DNA of 43,740 nucleotides from an uncultured Lentisphaerales bacterium. Lineage in GTDB: Bacteria; Verrucomicrobiota; Lentisphaeria; JABSQK01; UBA12247. A model generated the notes under the pieces. That model was not told the origin of the DNA and ran no database searches. It worked only from the letters and a program-made list of their open reading frames with translations. The stretch covers positions 1 to 43,740 of the forward strand of contig CALSSJ010000035.1 of NCBI GenBank assembly GCA_943788985.1, written 5' to 3'. Of this stretch, positions 6,213 through 35,154 are shown in pieces. How positions within the stretch are numbered: the first letter of the stretch is position 1; each line of letters starts with the position of its first letter. Made by a program: the position numbers and the translations under genes.

Positions 6213-6651
6213 AGTGCTCATTCGAAAAGCCACCGAGCCAGTAAAAGGAGTGTTCATAGTGCATGCCGGAGCGGGGCGATTGGTTCGGCTTAGGCGAAGA
6301 ATGGAGCGCTCGCCAGAATGGCAGGCAAACCATGCAAACGGAGTAGATATAGGACCATGCCGCCCCCGATTTTCACTTGAGCGCTGTTCGCAGGGGCGGT
6401 CAGGCAGCCAGGCGTTCTCGCTGCCGGGCCGCCTCGTCAGCGCGACGTAGCTGCGCCGCGCGCACCAGATTGTAGGCCAGCGCCTTCTCCAGCAGTTCCC
6501 CCTTGACGCGTTGGAGTCCGCAGCGGCGCAGCGAACCGAAGGCAAAACTGTGTTTGAGAACGAAAATCCCAGATTCGCAACTCGCGCGTAGGCTGCGAGC
6601 CTGTAGGTGCTCAGGACGGCCCCACTCCTCCTCACCAAGCAGCCGCTTGCT
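6213..6651 (-). mobile_element. 3' end of an IS5/ISNCY-like element: transposase C-terminus (stop at 6400) plus terminal non-coding DNA
   Basis: RASCESGIFVLKHSFAFGSLRRCG...ELLEKALAYNL resembles the DDE C-terminal signature; a diverged copy at 42896-43161 starts with the same AGTGCTCATTCGAAAAGCCACC. Confidence 0.65.
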
Positions 6652-7317
6652 TTCGCCGATTTCAGTGACTGGCTGAAGGAGCAGAAGGAAGGTGATCTCG
6701 TCGCCTTCTTCCGCAAGACGGTCGCTGTCGTCATCATGTGGAATTTGACAGAAACGATTGTCAGGAAGCAACAGTTTGGCGGCTATCGTCATGCCATCGT
6801 CACCTACACACTGGCGTGGTTTCACGAGATCACAGACCTGAAGGTTGATCTCGACCGAATATGGTCAGAGCAGAAACTCGATGATTCCGTGACGGAGGCG
6901 CTCGAGCTTCTTTGTGTTCATGTGAATGAGCATATCCGCGATACCGACCGGAACGTGACGGAGTGGGCGAAGAAGGAAGCGTGCTGGATTGGTCTGAAGG
7001 AGCGGGCCAGGCCAGAGCTGCCCAAGCTTGGGTTGGCGTCAGTCACTTCCCGAAGCCCGAAGAAAACGGAGATCAGGCGTAAATCGCAGGCCGAGTCTAT
7101 GGACTTTTGCAGCAGGTACCCGGGCGAGGCATGGTTTGCCCTTTCCAAGTGGCTGAAGGAACGCGATTTCATGCAGGGGAAGCAGCGTAGCCAGTGCTTC
7201 CATATGGGCAGAAAACTGAAGAAGGGCGACAAGCCATCTGCGGTGCTCTCAGCCGCCTGCCAGAAAATCTGGGAAGATGCCGCGGCAAGCTATGGCTGGG
7301 ACTGGACGGACGGCTAA
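6652..7317 (+). pseudogene. AIPR-family protein, C-terminal fragment
   Basis: GGYRHAIVTYTLA, DLDRIWSEQKL, NVTEWAKKEACW resemble AIPR C-termini; 5' part replaced by IS DNA; convergent with a C5 methyltransferase. Confidence 0.7.
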
Positions 7318-7320
7318 ACG

Positions 7321-7787
7321 TCAGTCGATCGAATCAAGTATCTCAGCGACGACCTTACCTATTTGCTCGGCGAGATAGGGTGGCACAGCGTTGCCCACCT
7401 GCTTGTATTGTTCAGTACGAGGCCCCTCAAAGAAATAGTCATCGGGGAATGTCTGCAGGCGCGCGGCCTCGCGCACGGTTAAGCTCCGGCATTGAGCAGG
7501 ATCGTAATGAATAAAGTAGTGACCGTCCTTTGCAATATGGCACGTTACCGTCGACGAAGGATGATCGGCAAGCTGCACCCTGAAGCGATCTGCAAACTTT
7601 CCGGTCTTGGCATTCTTGTGGTTCGGCAGAAGGGCCTCTGGATATTCACTCAGCTTCGGTGACCGATCGTGAACTTGCGCATAAGCCGCTGCGTATATGT
7701 ATCGCCAAAGGTCAGAGGCCATGTGACTGCGTGGAGAGTGGTTGGCGACCCCCTTCAAGCGCCTCGAATCGCGACGGTACCAACTGT
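7321..7787 (-). pseudogene. DNA (cytosine-5) methyltransferase, C-terminal fragment
   Basis: HIAKDGHYFIH, RSLTVREAARLQTFPD (motif IX), QYKQVGNAVPP (motif X); N-terminal catalytic part replaced by the IS91-like end at 7788. Confidence 0.85.
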
Positions 7788-7958
7788 AACACCTATCTGC
7801 GCGGAATATCGGCACGCAGCAGGAAGGGAGGACGGCCGGGCCAGCTGGCCCGGCCGTCCTCCCTTCCGTTTCTTCGCCGTCTCCGCCCCGTTTCCTTGAA
7901 TACCTCATCCCGTCAGCGTATCTTGGCTGTATCGGGAAAAAGCAATTTCCTATCAGTT
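7788..7958 (+). mobile_element. IS91/ISCR-like element 3' (ori) end only
   Basis: Matches the last 171 nt of 10784-11640 and 28405-29683; includes the 46-bp palindrome and ends GCAATTTCCTATCAGTT. Confidence 0.85.
7822..7867. repeat. Perfect 46-bp palindrome in the IS 3' region (also 11504-11549, 29547-29592)
   Basis: GGAAGGGAGGACGGCCGGGCCAG|CTGGCCCGGCCGTCCTCCCTTCC is self-complementary. Confidence 0.95.
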
Positions 7959-8073
7959 TGGCCGAGATTTGGCGCGACATCCGCCAACTGACCGCTCGGA
8001 TCAACGATGGCGAGAGTCAGGTGCATCAATCATTCAACATTCAATATTCGATGTCCCCATCTCGAACCTCGAG

Positions 8074-8607
8074 CTACCGGAACCTAATGACCGTCCCTGG
8101 GGGTCCGGACATCGCCACCCCGTAGGTGGGAGTCGCGTTCCGGAGATGAACCCAGCCGATGCCCTCCGCCCAGGCGTAGCCGTCAAACTCCCCGTTCGTC
8201 AGGTTGACGGTCACCTGGCCGTGACTCGGGTTGACGTTGACCCAGCCGGTAGTCTCGCTCCAGGCGTAGCCGGAGAGATTGCCAGCGCCGTCCATGTTCA
8301 CGCCCCAGGTGGTCGGGTCAGTATTGGCGTACGGCCCGCTGCCGGCGCCGGCGCCGAGCTTGATCCAGCCGACGCGCTCCGCCCAGACGTAGCCTTTCAG
8401 GTAGCTGTTGGCGCCGTCCAGCACGACGGTGACGCTGCCGTTGGCATCGCCCCAGTTCTGCCAGCCGGCGGTTTCAGACCAACTGTGCTTGGCGCCTGGA
8501 TCGATGCTGCGATCGTCCGCTGTGGCGACGCTTGCCGCAAGCAACAACAGCGCCATGGCAGCGCTCGCAGATATTCCGTGGCGAACATGAGTGTGACGGC
8601 AAATCAT
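8074..8607 (-). CDS. Secreted Trp-repeat (GYAWSExxGW-type) protein, 177 aa
   Basis: AAGGAG RBS, signal peptide, four repeats (HSWSETAGW, GYVWAERVGW, GYAWSETTGW, GYAWAEGIGW), C-terminal PPGTVIRFR. Confidence 0.75.
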   Translation of the reverse strand: MICRHTHVRHGISASAAMALLLLAASVATADDRSIDPGAKHSWSETAGWQNWGDANGSVTVVLDGANSYLKGYVWAERVGWIKLGAGAGSGPYANTDPTTWGVNMDGAGNLSGYAWSETTGWVNVNPSHGQVTVNLTNGEFDGYAWAEGIGWVHLRNATPTYGVAMSGPPGTVIRFR

Positions 8608-8662
8608 GGTTTTTTTCTCCTTCGTTTGTGTATCTCTGTGGTTTAGGTATATGGAAGTACGG

Positions 8663-9109
8663 TCATGTGGCGGCGCCGGTCCAACGCCAGCCCAGGACAC
8701 GTTCAAAAATGCCGTGGATGCGCCGCTCGGTCTGGTGGATCCAGGCGACGGGTGCCGCGGCGTCCCACAGGAGCCGCTTTGCCAGCATGAGCGCATCCTG
8801 GTGGAAGCGCGCCGGCAACAGGCCCATGCGTGCCCAGAAATCCGCGAGTGAGTGCAGCGGCCCGGCGAAAAGCTCCCAGTGACTGCCGCGCTGGATGACG
8901 ACCGCGTGCCCGGGCAAACAGCGGACAAAGAACTGGCACTGCGCCCGATATGTTTGGGCCGCATACGGAACCGGGCAGCGCAGCGCCACCTGCGTCTCGT
9001 TCCACGCAAAGTACTCCTTCAGCCAGGGGAAGCGCTCCTGCAGCCCGGCAACCAGCCGACGCCAGGCGGCCCGCCGAAAGTGTCCCGAGTAGGACGTCAA
9101 CCACTGCTG
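8663..9109 (-). pseudogene. C-terminal remnant of a DGR-type reverse transcriptase (thumb end plus extension)
   Basis: WLTSYSGHFRRAAWRRL resembles the SYxGHxxHA thumb-end motif of DGR RTs; no start codon and no YxDD core; context of DUF1566 target and MutS-like gene. Confidence 0.65.
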
Positions 9110-9344
9110 CCCGCACCAGCTTGCCCACGTACATGTCCAGGCCTGACTTCGGGAAACCGCCCACCACCACTGGTGCATCCACGTCGCCGGCCATCTTCAG
9201 CTTCAACCCCGTCACTGCCGAGACCTGCCGTGCGTCATCATTCATCACCTGCATGAACGTACCCACCTGCATCAACAACACCGCGTCCGGGTGCGCCGCC
9301 TTCAGGCTCGAATACTGCTCACATAACGTAGTCGAAAATACCAT
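9110..9344 (-). pseudogene. MutS domain I-like small protein (DGR accessory 'MSL' type), cut near its C-terminus
   Basis: EQYSSLKAAHPDAVLLMQVGTFMQVMNDDA...GLKL...GFPKSGLDMYVGKLVRA matches the MutS_I pattern; the expected GxxVA continuation is replaced by RT DNA. Confidence 0.8.
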
Positions 9345-9356
9345 TTTAAAAATCCG

Positions 9357-9389
9357 GCGCTTCGCGCGACCAGGTGGCAAGCCCCCTGG
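9357..9389 (-). promoter_or_regulatory. Two GC-rich hairpins downstream of the variable region (candidate DGR target-recognition stem-loops)
   Basis: Coding strand CCAGGGGGC-TT-GCCACCTGG (9370-9389, one mismatch) and GCGC-GAA-GCGC (9357-9367), about 45-80 nt after the DUF1566 stop. Confidence 0.6.
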
Positions 9390-9434
9390 ACCCCCAAAGG
9401 GTCGAAGCGTTCAAAGGGTCAAAGGGCCGAATCA

Positions 9435-9660
9435 TCATTCTCCGCCGCGGACCGGCCACACATAGAGCGCGTGGGTCTTGCCGGTCCCGCGCCCACGTCG
9501 CCGTAGCCCACGTCCACGTTCCACGCGTAGACGGTATAGCCCGCGTCCGTAGTACTGGACCAGTAGCCCCCCCCCTGCACGCCGCTGAACGGGTGCCCCG
9601 TGGGCAACGCCGGACCGGACGTTCCCGCAGGTCGATCAAGCTGTGCAGTTCTTTCTCCGT
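9435..9660 (-). other. DGR variable region (VR), allele 1
   Basis: Dense substitutions versus 31184-31410, mostly at codon positions 1-2, with invariant 3' TATGTGTGGCCGGTCCGCGGCGGAGAATGA (IMH-like). Confidence 0.8.
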
Positions 9661-10566
9661 CGGCAAGCGCCAGTCGCCAGCGGACGAGCCGTCGCTCAAG
9701 CCCTGCTGCCCGGCCGCCAGGCTGTTGCAGATGCTCAGTGCGTCTGCCCACGTCTCGGTCCCGTCGCCGGCATCCGCGTCCTGCAGCCAGATCAACCCCG
9801 TCAGATTGTCCGTCACTGTTCCATCACTGTTGTCGGTGAAGCGCGGGCTCGGCCAGACCACCCCGGTCTTCAGGTCGCCGTCGTCCCCCGTTGCGTACGA
9901 CGTCGTCTGCCCCGTCTTCTCCACCGCCGCCCCGCTCCCGCCACTGGCGGTGCCGGTGATCTCGGCGCCATCCACCCAAGCCTTCTTGCCGGTGGCGATG
10001 TCGCCCGCCGTGGCATCGCCACTGGACGTGTTCACCACATTGCTGTCCCCGGCCACGCCGAAGATGTTGGCCCCGGATCTGATGTTGCCGCTGGTCAGGT
10101 CGCTGTCTTGCGCCGTGGCGGTCTCCAAGCCGGTGTAGAGGCCGTTGGTGATCGTGATCGTGAGGCTGCCGTCCGCCCCGGTCAACGCATTGCCGGCTGG
10201 CACCGTACCGGTCTGCTGTCCCCAGGCGCCCGCGTCGAGGCCCCAAAAGACCTTGCCGCTGAGCACATCGCCGGCCGTGGCGGCGTTGCCGTTCGCCGCG
10301 GGAGCGGCGCCCATCACGTCGTCCAGTGTCGGCCCCGAGTCGCCCGGCGCGCCGGCGGCGAAGTCACCGGCAGTCGGTTCCTCGAAGGCGCCGGCGCGTT
10401 TGGCGCCGGCGGCACCAGTGTCCAAGCGATTGTAAATGTCTTCCAGATGGTACATGGCGCTGACGGGGAGGTTCGGAGCGGCAGGTGAGTCGGTGTCGCC
10501 AGCCACGGCGACGAAGGCCAGGGTCAAGGCGGTGATTGTGGTACGCGTGGTGGTCCAAATTCGCAT
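9435..10566 (-). CDS. Secreted DUF1566/Lcl C-type-lectin-fold protein, DGR target, copy 1 (small indels in the variable region)
   Basis: Signal peptide; KTGQTTSYATGDDG; RFTDNSDGTVTDNLTGLIW; WADALSICNSL; DWRLPTEKELHSL; across frameshifts YWSSTT...AWNV...YVWPVRGGE-stop at 9435; AGGAGG RBS. Confidence 0.9.
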
Positions 10567-10728
10567 GTGGATGTCCTCCTGTTGATTGTGCTGCGCAACT
10601 GCGCGCGTCTAGTGACGCGCGAGTATTTTAGCCGGCAACACGCCGGTAACAAACGCTTCTGGAAAAAAATTTCCAAGGTTGATGGCTGGTGATCGAGGAA
10701 CGGACCGATCTGCACTAGTCAACCCCGG

Positions 10729-10784
10729 CCTCATCCCGTCAGCGTATCTTGGCTGTATCGGGAAAAAGCAATTTCCTACCAGTT
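10729..10784 (+). repeat. 56-bp IS91/ISCR-type ori end (copies at 7903, 10729, 11585, 29628, 32234, 32371)
   Basis: CCTCATCCCGTCAGCGTATCTTGGCTGTATCGGGAAAAAGCAATTTCCTA(T/C)CAGTT; the TTCCTAT end resembles ISCR oriIS. Confidence 0.85.
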
Positions 10785-11640
10785 ATTCAGCGTTTGCTTC
10801 AGTACATGCTCAGATGCCCGTTCAGCCTGAAGCGCATGATTCAGACCACGGCGGATGGTAATGTTGCCTACCGAGCGACGCGCGAGAAGTGTATCGCCTT
10901 CCCGACCCGCAACGATACTCAGTTCCGTCGTGGTGTGTCGCGCAACTTTGAAATATTCGAGCCGCTCGACTTTATTGCTGAGGTCACGCAGCATATTCCG
11001 GAGCACGGCGCGCAGACAGTTCGCTATTACGGCTGGTATTCAAATAAGGCTCGCGGCATGCGCGCCAAGGCCGCAGAACAGGCAAAGGCAAAGCAGTCTA
11101 ATGGCCTTGAGCCCCTCACCACCGATGAGAGCGATACGCCGTATCGTAAATTATGCCGTATGCGCTGGTCGGCGCTGATTAAACGAGTTTACGAAGTAGA
11201 TCCATTGTGCTGTCCCCAATGTGGCGGCGCGATGACTATCGTCGCGTTCGTTGAGCAGAAGGACCAGGCCGATGTCATTGAGCGTATTCTCAAGCACTGT
11301 CAGCTATGGAATGATTACCCGCCCAGGGCGCCACCCAAGCCAGCCGCCGCTAGTGAATTTGAGCTGGAAGTTGAGTATGTAGACTTCGACGAGTTTCTGA
11401 TGGGTTTCTAAAAGCGCCCCGTCAGGAAGACGGTATCTCAATGCTCAAATTCGCGTATTCTACCTCCAAAACACCTATCTGCGCGGAATATCGGCACGCA
11501 GCAGGAAGGGAGGACGGCCGGGCCAGCTGGCCCGGCCGTCCTCCCTTCCGTTTCTTCGCCGTCTCCGCCCCGTTTCCTTGAATACCTCATCCCGTCAGCG
11601 TATCTTGGCTGTATCGGGAAAAAGCAATTTCCTATCAGTT
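10784..11640 (+). mobile_element. 5'-truncated IS91/ISCR-like element (transposase C-terminal part to 11411, plus ori end)
   Basis: 857 nt apparently identical to 28827-29683; LLQYMLR, VTQHIP, VRYYGWYSN, CPQCGG motifs. Confidence 0.9.
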
Positions 11641-12290
11641 ATCATATTCACACACATGATTACCACTCCTTACCACTGATCCCTCTGGCGGCGTTGGGCA
11701 TTGGTGCGGCAGCAGTGCGATTGCCACAGTGGTGGCGGGAGCAGCGCAAGCAGCTGATCAGCATTGTGGTCGCGGTGTGTGCCATCTACGGCCTGATCAT
11801 CGTTGGTACCTATGCCAAGACCCGAAACGTCAAGACCGTGATGAAGCTGGTTTTTGGCGCGACCGGCATGTCAAAGAAGTTTGTACACTACCTGCGGCCC
11901 AACAAGGCCCACCTGCAGCAACGCATCACCAATGCCAGGGCGATCGGCGAGCATGTGGGGCACTCCACCAACGTGGCATTCATGACCGAGGATTTCGGCA
12001 AATTTCTGCAGTACGAGGGGCAGCTATCTGGCGGGTACTACCCGGAGAAGGGTATTGACGGTGCCGCCGACGGCGAGCCGCCGACAGTTGACGCAATCGC
12101 GGCCTACGTGACCGAGAAGTTTCCCGATGGCCCCGACTATTTCGTAGTCACCGCCGTCAATGCCTACAATCAGCAGGAGACCTTGCGCACCTACCTGGCG
12201 CGGTTTCCGATCCTGGTGCAAGAAGAGGGTTATATGATCTTCGACACGCGCGCCACCTCTGCCCCCATCTCCCCACAGGACCCCAGCTAA
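11640..12290 (+). pseudogene. C-terminal fragment of a membrane protein, ArnT/GT39-like
   Basis: Frame open from the IS junction: YHIHTHDYHSLPLIPLAALGIG, then a TM helix and a soluble domain; stop overlaps the gltX start (TAATG). Confidence 0.55.
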
Positions 12291-28202: not shown

Positions 28203-28404
28203 CTACTCGTCCGCGAAGTAGTAGGTCGACACCTCTGGATTGGTGTACGTGTGCTGGCCTGTCAGGGAGATCGCATTGCTCCAAACGGTGTGTCCATCGA
28301 GGAATCCGGTCGTGCCGCCATAGAAGGTATCGCCCAAGTTCGGCGAGGTGGTTGTCCAACCACTGAAGAAGAGATGCGCATCGATCTTGCGATGGGTTCC
28401 AATA
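28203..28404 (-). pseudogene. Possible C-terminal remnant of an H-X9-DG-type (prepilin-associated) protein cut by the IS
   Basis: GGTTGFLDGHTVW resembles the GGNxxFxDGHVxW motif; 5' part abuts the transposase. Confidence 0.4.
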
Positions 28405-29683
28405 CTGTGTTTTACCATGCCGAAACGGTTCCGCGCTTACTTTCGCTATGACCGGGATCTACTCAAGCATCTTCCCCGCCTTGCCTGGGAAACAGTGCGC
28501 GACGTCTACCGTGCCGTGCTCGATCGCGATGACGTTGTTCCCGGCATGGTCGGCGCCCCACAGAGCTTTGGCGATCTAATAAATTGGCAACCGCATATGC
28601 ACACTCTATCCACCGATGGAGCGTTTGCCAAAGACGGCACGTATCTGCCTGTGCCCGATGATCTGCCGATTGAGCCGTTCCTCAAGCTCTGGGAGCACAA
28701 GATCTTTGCATTGCTACTGGCAGAGGGCCGCATCACCGAGAAGGTCGTCGAGCAGATGCGTAGCTGGAGGCACTCCGGGTTCAGCGTTGATAAGAGCGTC
28801 TACCTGCCGGCCGGTGACCAGGCTGCTATTCAGCGTTTGCTTCAGTACATGCTCAGATGCCCGTTCAGCCTGAAGCGCATGATTCAGACCACGGCGGATG
28901 GTAATGTTGCCTACCGAGCGACGCGCGAGAAGTGTATCGCCTTCCCGACCCGCAACGATACTCAGTTCCGTCGTGGTGTGTCGCGCAACTTTGAAATATT
29001 CGAGCCGCTCGACTTTATTGCTGAGGTCACGCAGCATATTCCGGAGCACGGCGCGCAGACAGTTCGCTATTACGGCTGGTATTCAAATAAGGCTCGCGGC
29101 ATGCGCGCCAAGGCCGCAGAACAGGCAAAGGCAAAGCAGTCTAATGGCCTTGAGCCCCTCACCACCGATGAGAGCGATACGCCGTATCGTAAATTATGCC
29201 GTATGCGCTGGTCGGCGCTGATTAAACGAGTTTACGAAGTAGATCCATTGTGCTGTCCCCAATGTGGCGGCGCGATGACTATCGTCGCGTTCGTTGAGCA
29301 GAAGGACCAGGCCGATGTCATTGAGCGTATTCTCAAGCACTGTCAGCTATGGAATGATTACCCGCCCAGGGCGCCACCCAAGCCAGCCGCCGCTAGTGAA
29401 TTTGAGCTGGAAGTTGAGTATGTAGACTTCGACGAGTTTCTGATGGGTTTCTAAAAGCGCCCCGTCAGGAAGACGGTATCTCAATGCTCAAATTCGCGTA
29501 TTCTACCTCCAAAACACCTATCTGCGCGGAATATCGGCACGCAGCAGGAAGGGAGGACGGCCGGGCCAGCTGGCCCGGCCGTCCTCCCTTCCGTTTCTTC
29601 GCCGTCTCCGCCCCGTTTCCTTGAATACCTCATCCCGTCAGCGTATCTTGGCTGTATCGGGAAAAAGCAATTTCCTATCAGTT
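28405..29683 (+). mobile_element. IS91/ISCR-like rolling-circle element, 5'-truncated (HUH transposase to 29454, plus ori end)
   Basis: FTMPKRFR, QSFG...PHMH (HUH), WRHSGFSV, single catalytic Tyr LLQYMLR, VRYYG, CPQCGG; N-terminal Zn-binding domain missing; left boundary approximate. Confidence 0.9.
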
Positions 29684-29802
29684 TTGGCCGAGATTTGGCC
29701 GCCGACATCCGCCAACTGACCGCTCGGATCAACGATGGCGAGAGTCCAGGTGCATCAATCATTCAACATTCAATATTCGATGTCCCCATCTCGTACCTCG
29801 AG

Positions 29803-30347
29803 CTACCGGAACCTAATGACCGTCCCTGAGAGTCCGGGCATCGCCACCCCGTAGGTGGGAAGTCCGCGTTCCGGAGATGAACCCAGCCGATGCCCTCCGC
29901 CCAGGCGTAGCCGTCAAACTCCCCGTTCGTCAGGTTGACGTGTCACCTCGCCGTGACTCGGGTTTGACGTTTGACCCAGCCGGCAGTCTCGCTCCAGGGC
30001 GTAGCCGGAGAGATTGCCAGCGCCGTCCATGTTCACGCCCCAGGTGGTCGGGGTCAGTATTGGCGTGCGGCCCGCTGCCGGCGCCGGCGCCGAGCTTGAT
30101 CCAGCCGACGCGCTCCGCCCAGGCGTTAGCCTTTCAGGTAGCTGTTGGCGCCGTCCAGCACGACGGTGACGCTGCCGTTGGCATCGCCCCAGTTCTGCCA
30201 GCCGGCGGTTTCAGACCAACTGTGCTTGGCGCCTGGATCGATGCTGCGATCGTCCGCTGTGGCGACGCTTGCCGCAAGCAACAACAGCGCCATGGCAGCA
30301 GCGCTCGCAGATATTCCGTGGCGAACATGAGTGTGACGGCAAATCAT
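29803..30347 (-). CDS. Secreted Trp-repeat protein, copy 2 (several frameshifts, probably sequencing errors)
   Basis: Aligns end to end with 8074-8607. Confidence 0.7.
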
Positions 30348-30402
30348 GGGGTTTTTCTCCTTCGTTTGTGTATCTCTGTGGTTTAGGTATATGGAAGTAC
30401 GG

Positions 30403-30854
30403 TCATGTGGCGGCGCCGGTCCAACGCCAGCCCAGGACACGTTCAAAAATGCCGTGGATGCGCCGCTCGGTCTGGTGGATCCAGGCGGACGGGTGCCGCG
30501 GCGTCCCACAGGAGCCGCTTATGCCAGCATGAGCGCATCCTGGTGGAAGCGCGCCGGCAACAGGCCCATGCGTGCCCAGAAATCCGCGAGTGAGTGCAGC
30601 GGGCCCGGCGAAAAGCTCCCAGTGACTGCCGCGCTGGATGACGACCGCGTGCCCGGGCAAACAGCGGACAAAGAACTGGCACTGCGCCCGATATGTTTGG
30701 GCCGCATACGAGAACCGGGCAGCGCAGCGCCACCTGCGTCTCGTTCCACGCAAAGTACTCCTTCAGCCAGGGGAAGCGCTCCTGCAGCCCGGCAACCAGC
30801 CGACGCCAGGCGGCCCGCCGAAAGTGGTCCCGAGTAGGACGTCAACCACTGCTG
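30403..30854 (-). pseudogene. DGR RT C-terminal remnant, copy 2
   Basis: Aligns with 8663-9109; same junction sequence CGGGCAGCAGTGGTTGACG. Confidence 0.6.
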
Positions 30855-31092
30855 CCCGCACCAGCTTGCCCACGTACATGTCCAGGCCTGACTTCGGGAA
30901 ACCGCCCACCACCACTGGTGCATCCACGTCGCCGGCCATCTTCAGCTTCAACCCCGTCACTGCCGAGACCTGCCCGTGCGTCATCATTCATCACCTGCAT
31001 GAACGTACCCACCCTGCATCAACAACACCGCGTCCGGGTGCGCCGCCTTCAGGCTCGAATACTGCTCACATAACGTAGTCGAAAAATACCAT
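30855..31092 (-). pseudogene. MutS domain I-like ORF, copy 2
   Basis: Aligns with 9110-9344. Confidence 0.75.
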
Positions 31093-31102
31093 TTTAAAAA
31101 TC

Positions 31103-31152
31103 CGACCCTTTGGGGGTCCAGGGGGCAAGCCCCCTGGACCCCCAAAGGGTCG
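31103..31152. repeat. Perfect inverted repeat with 24-bp arms downstream of VR copy 2
   Basis: CGACCCTTTGGGGGTCCAGGGGGC-AA-GCCCCCTGGACCCCCAAAGGGTCG. Confidence 0.9.
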
Positions 31153-31183
31153 AAGCGTTCAAAGGGTCAAAGGGGCCGAATCA

Positions 31184-31410
31184 TCATTCTCCGCCGCGGA
31201 CCGGCCACACATAGAACGCGTTGGACTTGCCGGTGCCGTAGCTCACGCTGCCGTAAGTTCACGTACACGCTAAACGCGTTGGCGGCATTGCCCGCGTTCG
31301 TAGTACTGGACCAGTAGAACGACGACTGCACGCCGCTGAACGGGTGCCCCGTGGGGCAACGCCGGATCGAAGTTCCCGACGTCGATCAAGCTGTGCAGTT
31401 CTTTCACCGT
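31184..31410 (-). other. DGR variable region (VR), allele 2
   Basis: Counterpart of 9435-9660; retains several AAC/AAT codons where allele 1 has GAC/TAC/TAT/GGC/CAC. Confidence 0.8.
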
Positions 31411-32072
31411 CGGCAAGCGCCAGTCGCCAGCGGACGAGCCGTCGCTCAAGCCCTGCCTGCCCGGTCGCCAGGCTGTTGCAGATGCTCAGTGCGTTTGCCC
31501 ACGTCGCGGTCCCGTCGCCGGCATCCGCGTCCTTCTGCCAGATCAACCCCGTCAGATTGTCCGTCACTGTTCCATCACTGTTGTCGGTGAAGCGCGGGCT
31601 CGGCCAGACCACCCCGGTCTCCAGGTCGCCGTCGTCCCCCGTTGCGTACGACGTCGTCTGCCCCGTCTTCTCCACCGCCGCCCCGCTCCCGCCACTGGCG
31701 GCTGGCACCGTACCGGTCTGCTGTCCCCAGGCGCCCGCGTCGAGGCCCCAAAAGACCTTGCCGCTGAGCACATCGCCGGCCGTGGCGGCGTTGCCGTTCG
31801 CCGCGGGAGCGGCCGCCCATCACGTCGTCCAGTGTCGGCCCCGAGTCGCCCGGCGCGCCGGCGGCGAAGTCACCGGCAGTCGGTTCCTCGAAGGCGCCGG
31901 CGCGTTTGGCGCCGGCGGCACCAGTGTCCAAGCGATTGTAAATGTCTTCCAGATGGTACATGGCGCTGGCCGGGTTGCTCGGAGCGGCAGGTGAGTCGGT
32001 GTCGCCAGCCACGGCGACGAAGGCCAGGGTCAAGGCGATGATTGTGGTACGCGTGGTGGTCCAAATTCGCAT
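31184..32072 (-). CDS. Secreted DUF1566/Lcl protein, DGR target, copy 2 (frameshifts; 82 aa shorter stalk)
   Basis: Aligns with 9435-10566; C-terminus reads VQSSFYWSSTTNAGNAANAFSVYVNYGSVSYGTGKSNAFYVWPVRGGE after removing single-base insertions. Confidence 0.85.
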
Positions 32073-32152
32073 GTGGATGTCGTCCTGTTGATTGTGCTGC
32101 GCAACTGCGCGTGTGGAGTAAGGCGGGAGTACGGTAGCCGGAAGTACGCCGG

Positions 32153-32426
32153 TAACAAACGCTTCTGAAAAAAATGTCCAAAGTTGATGGCTGGTGATCG
32201 AGGAACGGACCGACCTGCACTAGTCAACCCCGGCCTCATCCCGTCAGCGTATCTTGGCTGTATCGGGAAAAAGAAATTTCCTATCAGTTAACAAACGCTT
32301 CTGAAAAAAAAATTCCAAGGTTGATGGCTGGTGATCGAGGAACGGACCGACCTGCACTAGTCAACCCCGGCCTCATCCCGTCAGCGTATCTTGGCTGTAT
32401 CGGGAAAAAGCAATTTCCTATCAGTT
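32153..32426 (+). repeat. Imperfect tandem duplication (about 137 bp) of the cassette right end including the ori end
   Basis: TAACAAACGCTTCTG...CCTATCAGT occurs at 32153-32288 and again at 32289-32425. Confidence 0.9.
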
Positions 32427-32442
32427 TATCAACAAGGCGTCG

Positions 32443-35154
32443 ATGCTGGAGGCCAATCAGCATTTCTACGAGATGTTGGTCAAGTACACTTCAGTCGATC
32501 AGGACTTGGGCAAAGGTAGAAAAGGCCAAACCGTCAAGCTCATCGACTTCGACAATCCTGAGAATAACGAATTTCTCGTCGTCAACCAGTTCAAGGTCCA
32601 GGGTCCCAAGCAAAACATAATCCCAGACCTCGTCGTCTTCGTCAACGGCATCCCTCTTGCCGTCATCGAGTGCAAGTCGCCCTACATCACCAATCCGATG
32701 TACTGCGGCATCGACCAGCTTCAGCGCTACTGCAATCGCCGCAAGCCCGAGGACAATGAGGGAGCCGAACGACTGTTCTGGTACAACCAGATCATGGTCA
32801 GCGCCTATCGTGACCTCGCCAAGTTGGGGACGATTACCTCAAGGCCAGAGCATTTCTTGGAGTGGAAAGATCCGTATCCTGCCAAAGTCGAAGGGAAATC
32901 TCAGGACATTCTCATCCATGGCGTCTTTAGGAAAGAGAATTTCCTTCAGCAGATTCGAAATTTCATCGTCTTTGAAGCGACTGACGGCAAGGTTCTCAAG
33001 AAGTATTGCCGATACCAGCAGTACAGAGCCGTCCTGAAGACCATTGAGCGAATCAAGAGTGGCGACAACAGAAAGACCAAGGGCGGCATCATCTGGCATA
33101 CCCAAGGCTCTGGAAAGTCCTTGACCATGGTATTCTTGGCGTCCGCCATTCGCAGAGATCCAGACCTTTACGACTACAAATTGGTGTTTGTCACAGATCG
33201 TACCAACCTCGATGAACAGCTTTCCAATACCTTCCGCAGGTGTCAGGATGAAGAGGTCTACAGGGCAACCGATGTTAGGACTATGAAGGACTATCTCAGG
33301 CGGGACAGTTCTGATCTCGTCACTTGCATGGTCCAGAAGTTCAGGGGCGACGAGGATGGCAAGCCTGAACGCCTGAACGAGTCCGAAAGGATCATTATCA
33401 TGGCTGACGAGGCCCATCGCTCACAGACCTCGTCTTTGGGGATGCTTCTCAATTATGGCTTGCCCAACGCCATCAAGATCGGCTTTACGGGAACTCCCCT
33501 GATAAAAAGCCAGAAAACATCCAAGGAGTTCGGCTCATACATCGATACCTATAAGATTGATGAGGCCGTCAGAGACGGTGCTACCGTCCAGATCATTTAT
33601 CAGGGGAGAGATGCGCAGACCAAGGTGACTGGCGATTCTCTGGATAAGCTTTTTGCGAAGTACTTCTCTCACCTGTCCAAGGAAGAGATTGCTGAGATCA
33701 CCAAGCGGTTTGGAAAGGAATCAGCGGTACTGGAGGCTCCGAAGCGGGTCGAGATGGTTTGCTTCGATATCCTGGACCATTACCGAAGCCATATCCAGCC
33801 AGACGGCTTCAAGGCGATGATTGTCTGCCCAAGCAGAAGGAGCGCTATCATTTATCATGAGAAGCTGAAGGAGCTTGGAGCACCAGAGTCGGCCGTCGTC
33901 ATTTCCAGTAGTCACAATGATGGAGCCTTCTACACCAAGTATACCGAGGGGGTGAACTCCAAGGAGCTGGTGCAGCGCTTCAAGAAGCCAATGAGCGAGG
34001 ACGGACTGAGCATCCTGATCGTCAAGGATATGTTACTCACTGGCTTCGATGCCCCAATCTGCCAGGTGATGTATCTTGACCGTAAGCTGAGAGAGCACAC
34101 CCTTCTACAGGCTATTGCCAGAGTCAATCGAACGGCTCCAGCCAAGAAGAGGGGGTTCATCGTTGACTACTACGGCCTTTCCGACTATCTGGTGGAAGCT
34201 TGGGAGATGTTCTCGAAGGAGGACATCGAAGGGGCTCTCAAGCCACTCAAGGAAGAAATCCCAAAGCTGGAAAGCCGTCACGCTCGTTGCCTATCGTTTT
34301 TTGAGTCAGTTGCCGACAAGACGGACATGGACGAATGCGTTACCGCCCTTGAGGACGAGGAAATCAGAGCTGAATTCCAAGTGGCCTTCAAAAAGTTCTC
34401 AGAAAGCATGAACATCGTTCTGCCTGATCCTTCAGCCGCCCCCTTCATCGATGATTTGAAATGGCTGGGCAAGATCCATGTTAGGGCAAATAATCGTTAC
34501 CGAGAGGCGGTAGACGTTTCAGCCTATGGCAAAAAGGTTCAAGCGCTGATTCATGAGCACGTCTACAGCGAGGGCATTGATCCAAAGATTGAGCCTATGT
34601 CCATTTTTGACGATGGCTTCAATACCCATTTCAAGAAGATTAAATCGCCAAGGGCAAGGGCATCAGAGATTGAGCATGCCATCAAGCATCATATTACGGT
34701 AAATCTTGAGGATGATCCAGCTTACTACCAATCACTGGCGAAACGGCTTGAGGAGATCATCCAGAAACGATCTGACAATTGGGACGAGCAGGTCCAACTG
34801 CTTCTCAACCTGAGCGGCACCATGCATACTGAGCGTAAAGCCCAAGCCGACGGTCTTGGACTTTCCGACAGAGACTTCGCCTTCTATAACCTGCTCAAGG
34901 CTGACATCGCTGGAGGCGACGACTTGGACGAAGCGATGAAGGCTGAAGTGCTCAGGCTGAACGCTGTTCTGGTCGGCGAAATGGTCAAGGTTACTCATAT
35001 TGTGGACTTCTTCAGGAAGGCTGACGAGGTCAAACGGGTGAAGCTGAAGATCAAGCGGACGCTCATGGAGAGTTCACTTGGTCTCGACGTGAGCGCCAAT
35101 AAACGAATCGGAGTTGAGTTCATGAATTTGGCGAAGGTCAGGTTCGAGAGATGA
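32443..35154 (+). CDS. hsdR: Type I restriction enzyme R subunit, 5'-truncated at the ori end
   Basis: PDLVVFVNGIPLAVIECK nuclease motif, WHTQGSGKS Walker A, DEAH, GFTGTP, MLLTGFD, LLQAIARVNR; frame runs back into the ori end; no hsdM/hsdS. Confidence 0.9.
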   Translation: MLEANQHFYEMLVKYTSVDQDLGKGRKGQTVKLIDFDNPENNEFLVVNQFKVQGPKQNIIPDLVVFVNGIPLAVIECKSPYITNPMYCGIDQLQRYCNRRKPEDNEGAERLFWYNQIMVSAYRDLAKLGTITSRPEHFLEWKDPYPAKVEGKSQDILIHGVFRKENFLQQIRNFIVFEATDGKVLKKYCRYQQYRAVLKTIERIKSGDNRKTKGGIIWHTQGSGKSLTMVFLASAIRRDPDLYDYKLVFVTDRTNLDEQLSNTFRRCQDEEVYRATDVRTMKDYLRRDSSDLVTCMVQKFRGDEDGKPERLNESERIIIMADEAHRSQTSSLGMLLNYGLPNAIKIGFTGTPLIKSQKTSKEFGSYIDTYKIDEAVRDGATVQIIYQGRDAQTKVTGDSLDKLFAKYFSHLSKEEIAEITKRFGKESAVLEAPKRVEMVCFDILDHYRSHIQPDGFKAMIVCPSRRSAIIYHEKLKELGAPESAVVISSSHNDGAFYTKYTEGVNSKELVQRFKKPMSEDGLSILIVKDMLLTGFDAPICQVMYLDRKLREHTLLQAIARVNRTAPAKKRGFIVDYYGLSDYLVEAWEMFSKEDIEGALKPLKEEIPKLESRHARCLSFFESVADKTDMDECVTALEDEEIRAEFQVAFKKFSESMNIVLPDPSAAPFIDDLKWLGKIHVRANNRYREAVDVSAYGKKVQALIHEHVYSEGIDPKIEPMSIFDDGFNTHFKKIKSPRARASEIEHAIKHHITVNLEDDPAYYQSLAKRLEEIIQKRSDNWDEQVQLLLNLSGTMHTERKAQADGLGLSDRDFAFYNLLKADIAGGDDLDEAMKAEVLRLNAVLVGEMVKVTHIVDFFRKADEVKRVKLKIKRTLMESSLGLDVSANKRIGVEFMNLAKVRFER

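What the first reader, a model, noticed from the sequence alone, without database searches (positions are those of the whole stretch)
8663..9344. Non-autonomous DGR: same RT/TR-removing deletion in both copies, yet different VRs, implying diversification in trans
Seen: the MutS-I-like ORF runs at about 9109 directly into a different frame encoding QQWLTSYSGHFRRA, and the identical junction is at about 30854. I found no YxDD, Avd or third VR-like sequence in the window (GTACTGGACCAGTA occurs only in the two VRs by my reading). Established: DGR order is commonly target-accessory-TR-RT, MutS-like accessory genes are known, and remote targets can be served in trans. Inference: the TR and RT core were deleted before duplication, so the VR differences arose afterwards using an intact DGR elsewhere in the genome.
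Basis: partly seen in the sequence, partly recalled or inferred. Interest (0 to 1): 0.85.

Follow-up and report, generated by a model that had tools for sequence, protein, structure and literature searches.

The report
Twin relics of a hypermutation cassette
Two copies of a bacterial "targeted hypermutation" cassette (a diversity-generating retroelement) have lost the enzyme and template that drive mutation through one and the same deletion, which is real and fixed in wild marine populations; whether the still-different receptor tips were made afterwards by a helper element elsewhere remains unshown.

Summary
Observation confirmed. On the minus strand a MutS_I-like accessory ORF (MSL, 9344->9108) stops being MSL after residue 79 and runs, one frame over, into 149 codons (9112->8666) that align end to end with the C-terminus of DGR reverse transcriptases. 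The same junction is in copy 2 (about 30852), in 3 JGI metagenome contigs that span it and in Logan contigs of 4 runs from 4 studies, so it is no assembly collapse. Intact relatives show the order target(s)-MSL-Avd-TR-RT-secreted protein; about 1.9 kb (MSL tail, avd, TR, RT residues 1 to about 350) is missing.

The four VR alleles recovered differ mainly where related TRs carry adenine (30 of 37 variable columns), a true DGR signature. The trans-diversification reading is not supported. No cognate TR, Avd or DGR-type RT is in the 83.6%-complete genome, the viral collection or the protein databases. One allele recurs unchanged in another study. The relic is 100% identical between copies while the flanks differ by about 2% (permutation p=5e-6), which points to gene conversion, so "deletion before duplication" is not required. 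Degenerate DGR loci, trans-served or frozen, are already described. This is a new member of a known kind and of moderate interest.

The parts
9435..10566 (-). Copy 1 target gene (long form): signal peptide, then an Lcl_C/DUF1566 C-type-lectin-like domain ending in the VR. Frameshifted twice in this assembly, near 9618-9628 and 9490.
   Evidence: Pfam Lcl_C E 3e-16. Frames. The same gene is an intact 375-codon ORF in JGI contig L008. Reads leave out 2 bases at 9618-9628.
9467..9624 (-). VR of copy 1. The main variable zone is 9467-9574. A further variable patch at 9605-9624 lies outside the TR span of relatives.
   Evidence: 28/158 differences to copy 2 and 26-29/156 to L007/L008. 30 of 37 variable columns sit at TR-consensus adenines. 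Logan contigs break at 9465/9466 and resume at 9575/9585 in 3 of 4 runs.
9357..9420 (-). Hairpin plus T-run between the target stop and the MSL start. It is a perfect 22-bp stem only in copy 2 of this assembly; copy 1 and contigs L007-L009 share another version of one arm.
   Evidence: I1; hairpin arm: c2 differs at 6-7 of 19 from all others.
9108..9344 (-). MSL (MutS-like DGR accessory) remnant, residues 1-79 of about 105-125. It ends after ...GKLVRA(G).
   Evidence: PF01624 E 6.8e-11, profile 2-75/113. 77% identical to the intact 106-aa MSL of L011, and 111 relatives of 43-139 aa were found.
9104..9110 (-). Deletion junction: MSL codon 79/80 fused, +1 out of frame, to RT at about residue 349-361 (QQWL).
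   Evidence: nucleotide comparison with L011 and four other MSLs. Bridged by single contigs in X1, X2, X5, X13 and in L007, L008, L009.
8663..9112 (-). RT remnant: the last 149 codons of a DGR reverse transcriptase (end of thumb plus a MutS-domain-I-like C-terminal extension). An ATG at 9178 gives a 171-codon ORF.
   Evidence: phmmer: 69 hits. All 8 hits of 451 aa or more match it at their C-terminus and carry RVT_1 upstream. AF2 pLDDT 84. Foldseek top hits are all MutS/MSH.
8074..8610 (-). Secreted 178-aa protein with four GYAWxENxGWIxF-like repeats ('sec178'). It is a conserved last gene of this DGR cassette family.
   Evidence: tblastn finds homologues directly downstream of the RT or RT remnant in 10 of 16 related loci. 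No Pfam family.
31184..32072 (-). Copy 2 target gene (short form, lacks the equivalent of 9951-10168), with its VR at about 31216-31373. Riddled with single-base insertions in this assembly.
   Evidence: Intact 293-codon ORF in JGI contig L007. The 9947->10194 skip is seen in X5 and X13.
30403..31092 (-). Copy 2 MSL remnant (30853-31092), junction (30849-30855) and RT remnant (30403-30851).
   Evidence: 0 substitutions and 8 single-base insertions against copy 1.
29803..30350 (-). Copy 2 sec178 gene (broken by insertions in this assembly).
28348..29454 (+). IS91-family Y2 transposase next to copy 2. Its 3' 857 nt (28827-29683) are repeated at 100% next to copy 1 (10784-11640; truncated ORF 10749-11411).
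   Evidence: PF04986 E 2e-21 and 7.7e-14. Repeats.
7788..7959 (.). 172-nt repeat with a 46-nt palindrome that bounds the units (also at 11470-11641 and 29513-29684). Multi-copy in the genome.
   Evidence: D1, I2-I4. (further copies on contigs C15, C3, C25, C10).

Best explanation
The locus is a relic of an MSL/Avd-type diversity-generating retroelement. The ancestral order, kept in relatives from several phyla, was target gene(s) with a C-terminal Lcl_C VR, then MSL, Avd, TR, RT (with a MutS-domain-I-like C-terminal extension), then a secreted 178-aa protein. One deletion of roughly 1.9 kb removed the last ~25-45 codons of MSL, all of avd, the TR and RT residues 1 to about 350. It fused MSL codon 79 out of frame to the RT tail, so the cassette can no longer mutate anything by itself (shown).

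The relic unit, bounded by short repeats and lying beside an IS91-family transposase, is present twice, and this deletion allele is the only form found in wild marine populations (shown). The VR alleles were written by adenine-directed DGR mutagenesis (shown by proxy).

Inferred: that diversity is mostly a legacy of the time when a functional TR/RT was still available. The shared junction and the invariant relic reflect gene conversion or recombination between copies and strains, with tracts that stop at the divergent VR. They do not reflect ongoing diversification in trans. What selection still keeps are the target genes and the secreted partner gene, not the relic.
For: RT identity:
- phmmer of the 149-aa peptide against 1.84 G representatives gave 69 hits at E<=1e-3.
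- All 8 hits of 451 aa or more match it with their C-terminal ~140 aa and carry RVT_1 upstream. 12 of 18 scanned hits have RVT_1 at E<=0.01, 10 of them above the curated cut-off.
- Their sequences show LPIGNLTSQFFANVYLD and YCDD. The alignment is end to end.

Ancestral order and size of the loss:
- L011 and 6 other intact loci show the order. The deleted interval equals L011 2416-4346.

Junction is real:
- One contig bridges 8402-9465 in each of X1, X2, X5 and X13, from 4 studies (1063-1203 nt). There are 1-3 other letters up to 9465 in X1, X2 and X5. The X13 contig runs on into the VR and has 28 other letters in all. No insert, fork or loose end appears near 9109.
- L007, L008 and L009 carry the identical junction. 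L010 starts downstream of it, inside the RT remnant.
- No intact RT above 50% identity, and no intact MSL above 78% identity, from this lineage is among the 5.8 G proteins.

DGR signature:
- 30 of 37 variable columns lie at TR-consensus A; 14 A columns and 75 non-A columns are invariant; Fisher p=4e-12.

No helper found:
- Only 2 RVT_1 hits in the genome, a group-II-like one and a short YVDD one.
- No Avd and no DGR RT by tblastn.
- No third VR/TR-like sequence.
- 0 viral contigs.

Stability:
- The X13 contig carries the copy-2 VR letters at the same depth as its flanks (13.8), in a different study.

Conversion:
- 0/694 substitutions in the MSL plus RT remnant among c1, c2, L007, L008 and L009, against 3-13/325 and 0-11/534 in the flanks.
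- Longest substitution-free run 745 nt, permutation p=5e-6.
- L007 and L008 share the 3' two thirds of their VR and all of sec178, yet differ at 9 sites at 9657-9785.

Targets kept:
- Intact ORFs of 293 and 375 codons in L007 and L008.
Against: Four different VR alleles sit on one invariant deletion-bearing backbone, which is exactly what post-deletion diversification in trans would give. In 3 of 4 runs the contigs break precisely at the borders of the variable zone, and no contig matching the window's VR1 was laid there. More alleles than the four may therefore exist.

The genome is 83.6% complete, so about a sixth of it, plus any plasmid or phage, was not searched. Logan contigs drop rare variants, so a minority intact allele would be missed. 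I could lay contigs only, not raw reads, so within-sample VR heterogeneity was not measured.

The TR used for the adenine test is a consensus of relatives, not the lost TR. Some copy-1 or copy-2 'substitutions' used in the conversion test may be assembly errors of this MAG.
Confidence: 0.62

Rival explanations
1. One reading: the deletion came first, the relic was then duplicated, and both VRs have since been rewritten in trans by an intact DGR with a cognate TR elsewhere (an unassembled part of the chromosome, a plasmid or a phage). The two loci would then be non-autonomous DGR targets that are still live.
For: The same junction is in both copies and in every wild contig. VR alleles differ between copies and between samples at adenine positions. 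Contigs break at the VR in X1, X2 and X5. The sequence from the VR 3' end to the downstream hairpin is 100% conserved. Trans action of DGR components and trans-served degenerate loci are documented (passages read in PMC5758913, and in 10.1101/2023.09.22.558884). The assembly is incomplete.
Against: No TR-like third copy exists in 4.58 Mb. There is no Avd and no DGR-type RT. No cognate pattern was found in viral contigs. No near relative with an intact RT is in the metagenome or protein collections. The VR2 allele is identical in an independent study, at full depth and without a fork. L007 and L008 share the 3' part of the VR and differ in the 5' part. From my recollection of the mechanism, 3'-anchored partial retrohoming should leave the opposite pattern. 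Gene conversion explains the shared junction without this order of events.
Confidence: 0.15
2. The 'two copies' are two alleles (long-form and short-form strains) of one locus that a long-read assembler stitched into one contig through the 857-nt and 172-nt repeats. The VR difference would then be plain between-strain polymorphism, and nothing follows about duplication.
For: Copy 2 is of visibly poor consensus quality, with 23-28 single-base insertions absent from L009, L010 and L007. L007 shows the short form joined to the flank that the window puts beside copy 1. X1 shows only the long form. In X13 the long form (6.5) and short form (6.4) add up to the depth of the shared part (13.8).
Against: 17 kb of unique genes separate the copies in the contig. 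L009 and L010 confirm the copy-2 side flank into the full-length transposase. The long and short forms co-occur in X5 and X13. Relatives such as L011 do carry a short and a long target in one cassette. Contig depth is no copy number, so the depth argument is weak either way.
Confidence: 0.12
3. The relic is not junk. The retained RT tail (a free-standing MutS-domain-I-like protein from ATG 9178), and perhaps the MSL stub, were kept by selection for a DNA- or mismatch-binding role. The perfect conservation would then be purifying selection.
For: 0/694 substitutions among five alleles. The 171-codon ORF is open in all contigs. The fold prediction is confident (pLDDT 84) and MutS-I-like. Other RT-less relatives also keep an RT tail.
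Against: Selection on a protein does not stop synonymous change. The MSL stub runs into 146 out-of-frame codons. In other RT-less relatives the retained tail shrinks to about 30-60 codons and is fused to other fragments (L023, L024, L025, L026). That fits passive retention upstream of the sec178 gene. The ORF has no Pfam family.
Confidence: 0.06

Closest known systems
MSL-containing DGRs ('Architecture D' of Wu et al. 2017, Nucleic Acids Res 46:11, PMC5758913; passages read)
   Same: It has a small MutS_I-like accessory gene next to the target, Avd in the intact relatives, a C-type-lectin-type VR, and an RT whose C-terminal extension resembles MutS_I. The paper notes three such RTs. Here the resemblance is backed by hhalign (weak) and by a fold search.
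   Different: Here MSL is cut at residue 79, and avd, TR and the RT core are gone. A secreted 178-aa gene is a constant last member of the cassette, which the passages I read do not mention. I did not see the paper's supplementary tables, which may list it among 'potential accessory genes'.
Degenerate DGR loci of Thiohalocapsa PB-PSB1 (Dore et al., bioRxiv 10.1101/2023.09.22.558884; passages read)
   Same: One genome holds several DGR loci in which RT and/or TR are missing or broken by mobile elements. Their VRs are nevertheless diverse. The authors explain this by trans action of a complete locus, by a minority of cells that keep RT/TR, or by diversity made before the disruption.
   Different: There a complete locus of the same class is present, and its TR matches the orphan VRs at non-adenine sites. 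Here no complete locus and no TR was found. The same precise deletion is shared by both copies and fixed across samples, and concerted evolution of the relic is seen.
Remote (non-adjacent) DGR targets, e.g. Treponema denticola; trans supply of avd-TR-brt in the Bordetella phage system (as summarised in PMC5758913)
   Same: A VR-bearing target without its own RT/TR can in principle be served from elsewhere.
   Different: Remote targets are defined by a TR in the same genome with only A-to-N differences. That defining partner is missing here.

Membership tests
Diversity-generating retroelement (autonomous cassette) | DGR-clade reverse transcriptase with catalytic core (IGxxxSQ and YxDD motifs) | tested here: not met
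   Only the last 149 codons remain. The whole-genome RVT_1 search gives two non-DGR RTs, and tblastn with the L011 RT hits only the remnants.
Diversity-generating retroelement (autonomous cassette) | Template repeat matching the VR except at adenines | tested here: not met
   blastn of both VRs and a 19-nt core pattern find only the two VRs in 4.58 Mb. The assembly is 83.6% complete.
Diversity-generating retroelement (autonomous cassette) | VR whose variation is confined to TR-adenine positions | tested here: met
   Tested by proxy. 30 of 37 variable columns among 4 alleles lie where the consensus of 7 related TRs is A, and 7 lie at non-A columns. The element's own TR is lost, so the strict test is impossible.
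Diversity-generating retroelement (autonomous cassette) | Accessory gene (Avd and/or MSL) | tested here: not met
   Avd is absent. MSL is present only as residues 1-79, profile 2-75/113.
Diversity-generating retroelement (autonomous cassette) | Target protein with the VR in a C-type-lectin-like C-terminal domain | tested here: met
   Lcl_C E 3e-16. 56-78% identity to targets of the intact L011 cassette.
Trans-served (non-autonomous) DGR target locus | A complete DGR in the same cell whose TR equals the VR at non-adenine sites | tested here: not met
   None in the assembly. None among the 4 matching metagenome contigs, the viral contigs or the protein collections. The unassembled 16% and unbinned replicons were not tested.
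Trans-served (non-autonomous) DGR target locus | Ongoing within-population VR variation at adenine sites | tested here: inconclusive
   Contigs fork at the VR borders in 3 of 4 runs, but one run carries a single allele identical to copy 2. Only contigs could be laid, not raw reads.
Trans-served (non-autonomous) DGR target locus | Intact cis elements at the VR 3' end (IMH, downstream hairpin) | not tested
   The 3' end of the VR through to the hairpin is invariant among alleles. One hairpin arm differs between assemblies. No functional definition of the IMH for this family was available to test against.
MSL (MutS-like DGR accessory protein) | Complete small protein of about 105-139 aa covering MutS domain I | tested here: not met
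   Relatives are 43-139 aa, typically 104-139, and continue ...KLVRAG(H/Y/R)SVA(I/V)A.Q.... The window's copy leaves the family consensus after KLVRA(G).

The most novel reading that the evidence does not exclude
The two relics are still being rewritten. A master DGR with a cognate TR sits on an unassembled or unbinned replicon of this widespread marine bacterium and serves both orphan VRs in trans. A precisely deleted, duplicated 'satellite' cassette would then be the normal working state, and the frequent RT-core losses in this cassette family (7 of 14 assessable relatives) would mark a general shift from autonomous to satellite loci.
Probability: 0.12. Interest if true: 0.6.

Novelty: new member of a known kind. 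Interest (0 to 1): 0.36.

Why it matters
It documents, with population data from several independent marine studies, how a targeted-hypermutation system ends. One clean deletion removes template and enzyme, the diversified receptor genes and a secreted partner gene stay intact, and the dead core is homogenised between copies by gene conversion.

For people who annotate DGRs it is a warning. An RT-like ORF of 171 codons plus a MutS_I hit next to a variable lectin gene is not an active DGR, and a shared junction does not date a deletion relative to a duplication.

It also gives three leads for DGR specialists:
- a conserved secreted repeat protein as the last gene of this cassette family;
- fold-level support that the RT's C-terminal extension is a MutS-domain-I-like module;
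- frequent independent RT-core loss in this family.

If a cognate TR were later found, the locus would be a good natural system for trans-diversification, because the organism is present in many public marine data sets.

Tried and rejected
- Assembly collapse at the junction: rejected.
- A plain 1-base sequencing frameshift inside one continuous MSL gene: rejected. Intact MSLs continue with (H/Y/R)SVA(I/V)A.Q and end about 25-45 codons later, while the downstream frame is RT sequence.
- Relatives of the organism: 0 of 60 genomes of the same order or class have the peptide, so no syntenic intact locus could be compared.
- The first alignment (A1) was too diverse for the search for related loci. 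A narrower one (A2) worked.
- Viral contigs: no relative of the RT tail and no cognate VR/TR pattern.
- A second DGR in the genome that holds L025 (locus L028) was checked as a possible trans donor for that relative's orphan VR. There was no TR-like match, and I did not pursue it.
- sec178: no Pfam family; the Atlas gave only a 0.80 hit to an unnamed cluster; the AlphaFold model had pLDDT 54, too poor for a fold search, so none was run.
- hhalign of the RT tail against MSL gave only 16.6% probability, so the MutS-I-like call rests mainly on the fold search. Its best E-value is 0.025, and no hit reaches E<=0.001.
- Earlier notes of this scan: nothing on this locus.
- Parts of the stretch without laid contigs (VR zone in X1, X2, X5) are not taken as evidence of absence.
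- Depth ratios between contigs were considered as copy-number evidence and set aside as unreliable.

Full report
**What is there.** The window is a whole 43,740-bp contig of a 4.58-Mb, 48-contig assembly that is 83.6% complete.

A unit of about 3 kb occurs twice in direct orientation, at 7788-10785 and 29513-32290. The two are 96% identical over 2191 nt, with 28 gap openings. Copy 2 lacks the equivalent of 9951-10168.

All genes of the unit lie on the minus strand. In copy 1 they are:
- a target gene (10566->9435) with a signal peptide and an Lcl_C/DUF1566 domain (E 3e-16) whose C-terminal 50 codons are the VR;
- a hairpin plus T-run;
- an ORF starting at 9344 that is MutS_I (E 6.8e-11), but only over profile positions 2-75 of 113;
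- one frame over, 149 codons (9112->8666) with no Pfam family;
- a secreted 178-aa protein (8610->8074), also with no Pfam family.

**The peptide is an RT tail.** phmmer of the 149 residues against 1.84 billion representatives gave 69 hits at E<=1e-3 and 26 at E<=1e-10.
- All eight hits of 451 aa or more match it with their last ~140 residues and have RVT_1 upstream.
- Of 18 hits scanned, 12 show RVT_1 at E<=0.01, 10 above the cut-off. The 6 without it are short fragments.
- The full-length hits carry LPIGNLTSQFFANVYLD and YCDD, and one ORF reads through an asparagine-rich TR just upstream of its RT.
- The alignment starts exactly at QQWL(T/N)SY and runs to the end.

The tail itself is more than a thumb. 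Wu et al. 2017 (passages) noted weak MutS_I similarity in three RT C-terminal extensions.
- hhalign against an MSL alignment is weak but collinear (16.6%, E 0.0015).
- An AlphaFold model has pLDDT 84.
- The Foldseek PDB hits are almost all MutS/MSH proteins. The best has E 0.025, probability 1.00, TM 0.50 on the query and 104-114 columns. No hit reaches E<=0.001.

**What was lost.** Sixteen related loci from several phyla were fetched and mapped with tblastn and ORF reading.

The closest intact one is L011, from a Verrucomicrobia MAG. Its MSL is 77% identical, its RT tail 51% and its secreted protein 57%. Its order is two targets (short and long), MSL (106 aa), Avd (139 aa), TR, RT (496 aa), secreted protein.

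Intact MSLs continue ...GKLVRAG(H/Y/R)SVA(I/V)A.Q.... In the window the sequence switches after GKLVRA(G) to (Q)QWLTSY of the RT. At nucleotide level the junction lies at 9104-9110, with at most 3-4 nt of possible microhomology, and the RT frame is +1 to the MSL frame. The missing interval corresponds to L011 2416-4346, about 1.9 kb: the MSL tail, avd, TR and RT residues 1 to about 350.

**The junction is real and fixed.** Twenty marine or estuarine runs from 8 studies hold 62-81% of the words of 7960-10640.
- I laid Logan contigs of four runs from four studies. Each has one contig bridging 8402-9465, and the X13 contig runs on to 9604 (records of 1063-1203 nt).
- Up to 9465 there are 1-3 other letters in X1, X2 and X5. 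X13 has 28 other letters in all, nearly all inside the VR.
- There is no inserted sequence, joint or loose end near 9109.
- Four JGI metagenome contigs encode the peptide at 100% identity. L007, L008 and L009 span the junction and are identical to the window there. L010 starts downstream of it.
- No protein collection holds an intact RT above 50% identity, or an intact MSL above 78% identity, to this lineage.

**Assembly quality.** Copy 2 of the MAG carries about 23-28 single-base insertions. These are absent from L009 and L010 (same flank), from L007 and from the Logan contigs. Copy 1 has two extra bases at 9618-9628 that the reads leave out. In L007 and L008 the targets are intact ORFs of 293 and 375 codons. 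The frameshifts in the targets are therefore not biology. The junction frameshift is.

**The VRs.** Four alleles are available: copy 1, copy 2, L007 and L008.
- They differ at 26-31 of 156-158 sites, except L007/L008 at 8.
- Within the span homologous to the TRs of seven intact relatives, 30 of 37 variable columns lie where the TR consensus is A. 14 A columns and 75 non-A columns are invariant (Fisher p=4e-12). This is the DGR signature.
- A small hypervariable patch at 9605-9624 lies upstream of the TR span of relatives and is not explained.

**Is there a helper?** None was found.
- In the assembly, RVT_1 finds only a group-II-intron-like RT (C31) and a short YVDD RT (C21).
- tblastn with L011's Avd and RT finds no Avd, and only the two remnants plus the C31 RT at 23% identity.
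- blastn with both VRs and a 19-nt core pattern (up to 2 mismatches) finds only the two VRs.
- Viral contigs gave nothing.
- 0 of 60 genomes of the same order or class have the peptide.

**Order of events.** The data offer another route.
- Between copies there are 27 substitutions in 1826 non-VR sites but none in 8612-9356. The substitution-free run of 745 nt has permutation p=5e-6.
- The MSL plus RT remnant shows 0/694 substitutions among five alleles, while the target body (3-13/325) and sec178 (0-11/534) vary.
- The mosaic differs by strain. L007 and L008 are identical in sec178, the relic, the 3' two thirds of the VR and the 5' part of the target, and they differ only at 9657-9785 and in the 5' third of the VR.

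This is what gene conversion between copies, and recombination between strains, produces, with tracts ending at the divergent VR. Such conversion could have copied the deletion from one copy to the other.

Two further points speak against live diversification. In X13 a single contig runs through the VR with the copy-2 letters at the depth of its flanks, so that allele is shared unchanged with another study. Alleles that share the 3' part of the VR and differ in the 5' part are also the reverse of what 3'-anchored partial retrohoming should leave; that expectation is recalled from the literature and was not tested here.

Other evidence points the other way. Contigs break exactly at 9465/9466 and 9575/9585 in three runs, no contig like VR1 was laid there, only contigs could be laid, and a sixth of the genome is missing. 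I put the trans model at about 0.15.

**How the unit was doubled.** Both copies abut a 100%-identical 857-nt segment (10784-11640 = 28827-29683). It is the 3' part of an IS91-family Y2 transposase gene, full length at 28348-29454 and truncated at 10749-11411. A 172-nt repeat with a 46-nt palindrome, found on at least four other contigs, also bounds the copies. The neighbourhood holds fragments of an AIPR gene and a C5 methylase, and a type I HsdR. It is a variable, IS-active region.

L007 joins the short-form unit to the flank that the window places beside copy 1. The arrangement therefore varies among strains, or the two forms are alleles. I give that rival 0.12.

**Relatives lose the core too.** Of the 16 loci, two are cut by contig ends (L019, L020).
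- Seven are intact: L011-L014, L017, L018 and L021.
- Seven carry RT-inactivating deletions with different junctions:
  - L015 and L022, from one Nitrospinota MAG, with avd truncated by a shared insert and the RT starting at about residue 320-332;
  - L016, which has lost about residues 252-323 including YCDD;
  - L023, with Avd fused to the last ~60 RT residues;
  - L024, with the target followed by the last ~40 residues;
  - L025;
  - L026, with the Avd N-terminus fused to the last ~30 residues.
- All loci that reach that far keep the secreted-protein gene.

The sample was drawn with an RT-tail motif and is not unbiased.

**Comparison with what is known.** MSL-type DGRs, RT tails with MutS_I similarity, remote targets and trans supply of avd-TR-RT are all in Wu et al. 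2017 (passages). Degenerate DGR loci are described for Thiohalocapsa PB-PSB1 (passages). Their diverse VRs are explained there by trans action, by a minority of intact cells or by pre-disruption diversity. I read passages only and saw no supplements of either paper. Wu et al.'s supplementary tables may already list the secreted-protein gene.

**Verdict.** The finding is a well-documented new example of a known kind, with a clean junction and population support. It is not a demonstrated non-autonomous, trans-served DGR.

Noticed in passing
window 8074-8610 (-); L011:4848-5387, L012:7553-8173, L014:1926-2558, L024:3640-4152 and others: A secreted or anchored protein family with four GYAWxENxGWIxF-like repeats is the constant last gene of this DGR cassette family, directly downstream of the RT or its remnant in 10 of 16 loci. 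It is kept even where the RT is deleted. It has no Pfam family. Some members add a C-terminal membrane anchor or long surface domains. A paralogue lies on contig C38 (about 7294-7761).
   Followed up: partly
L015, L016, L022, L023, L024, L025, L026: Seven of 14 assessable related cassettes, from different phyla, have independently lost the RT catalytic core, each with a different junction, while keeping the target and the secreted-protein gene. In the Nitrospinota genome (G061) the RT N-terminal part sits elsewhere (C14:28476-29413, with one stop), and two loci share an identical inserted element.
   Followed up: partly
window 29513-32290 (copy 2): About 23-28 single-base insertions relative to copy 1 are absent from independent short-read contigs of the same locus and flank. 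This part of the assembly is poorly polished, so its ORF breaks should not be read as pseudogenisation.
   Followed up: yes
window 8666-9112 (-) and RT C-termini of P0009, P0018, L011: The C-terminal extension of about 110 residues in this RT clade is predicted (pLDDT 84) to fold like MutS domain I. PDB fold hits are almost exclusively MutS/MSH proteins, though the best E-value is only 0.025.
   Followed up: yes
window 7788-7959, 11470-11641, 29513-29684; contigs C15, C3, C25, C10: A 172-nt repeat containing a perfect 46-nt palindrome (GGAAGGGAGGACGGCCGGGCCAGCTGGCCCGGCCGTCCTCCCTTCC) is scattered over the genome at 97-100% identity. It looks like a MITE or REP-type element and bounds the relic units.
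   Followed up: no
window 10784-11640 = 28827-29683; ORFs 28348-29454 (+) and 10749-11411 (+): An IS91-family (Y2) transposase gene lies full length beside copy 2 and truncated beside copy 1, inside an 857-nt perfect repeat. It is a likely agent of the duplication or of rearrangements here.
   Followed up: partly
window 9357-9375 vs 31105-31123: One arm of the hairpin between the target and MSL differs at 7 of 19 positions between the copies. Only copy 2 of this assembly forms a perfect 22-bp stem. Contig L009, which lies in the copy-2 flank, has the copy-1 version, so the perfect palindrome may be an assembly artefact.
   Followed up: partly
window 9605-9624 (and equivalents in L007, L008, copy 2): A 10-20-nt patch upstream of the VR is different in all four alleles, although it lies outside the TR span inferred from relatives and is separated from the VR by 39 invariant bases that contain four unchanged adenines.
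   Followed up: no
window 6607-8004 and 32443-35154: The relic units sit among defence-type genes: an AIPR fragment, a C-5 cytosine methylase C-terminal fragment cut by the 172-nt repeat, and a type I restriction R subunit.
   Followed up: no
joint 10405->8529 with 13 letters between, in all four runs: Contigs in every run join the 5' part of the target gene to the 5' part of the secreted-protein gene. This is probably another paralogous or rearranged gene with a similar signal-peptide region. I did not examine it.
   Followed up: no
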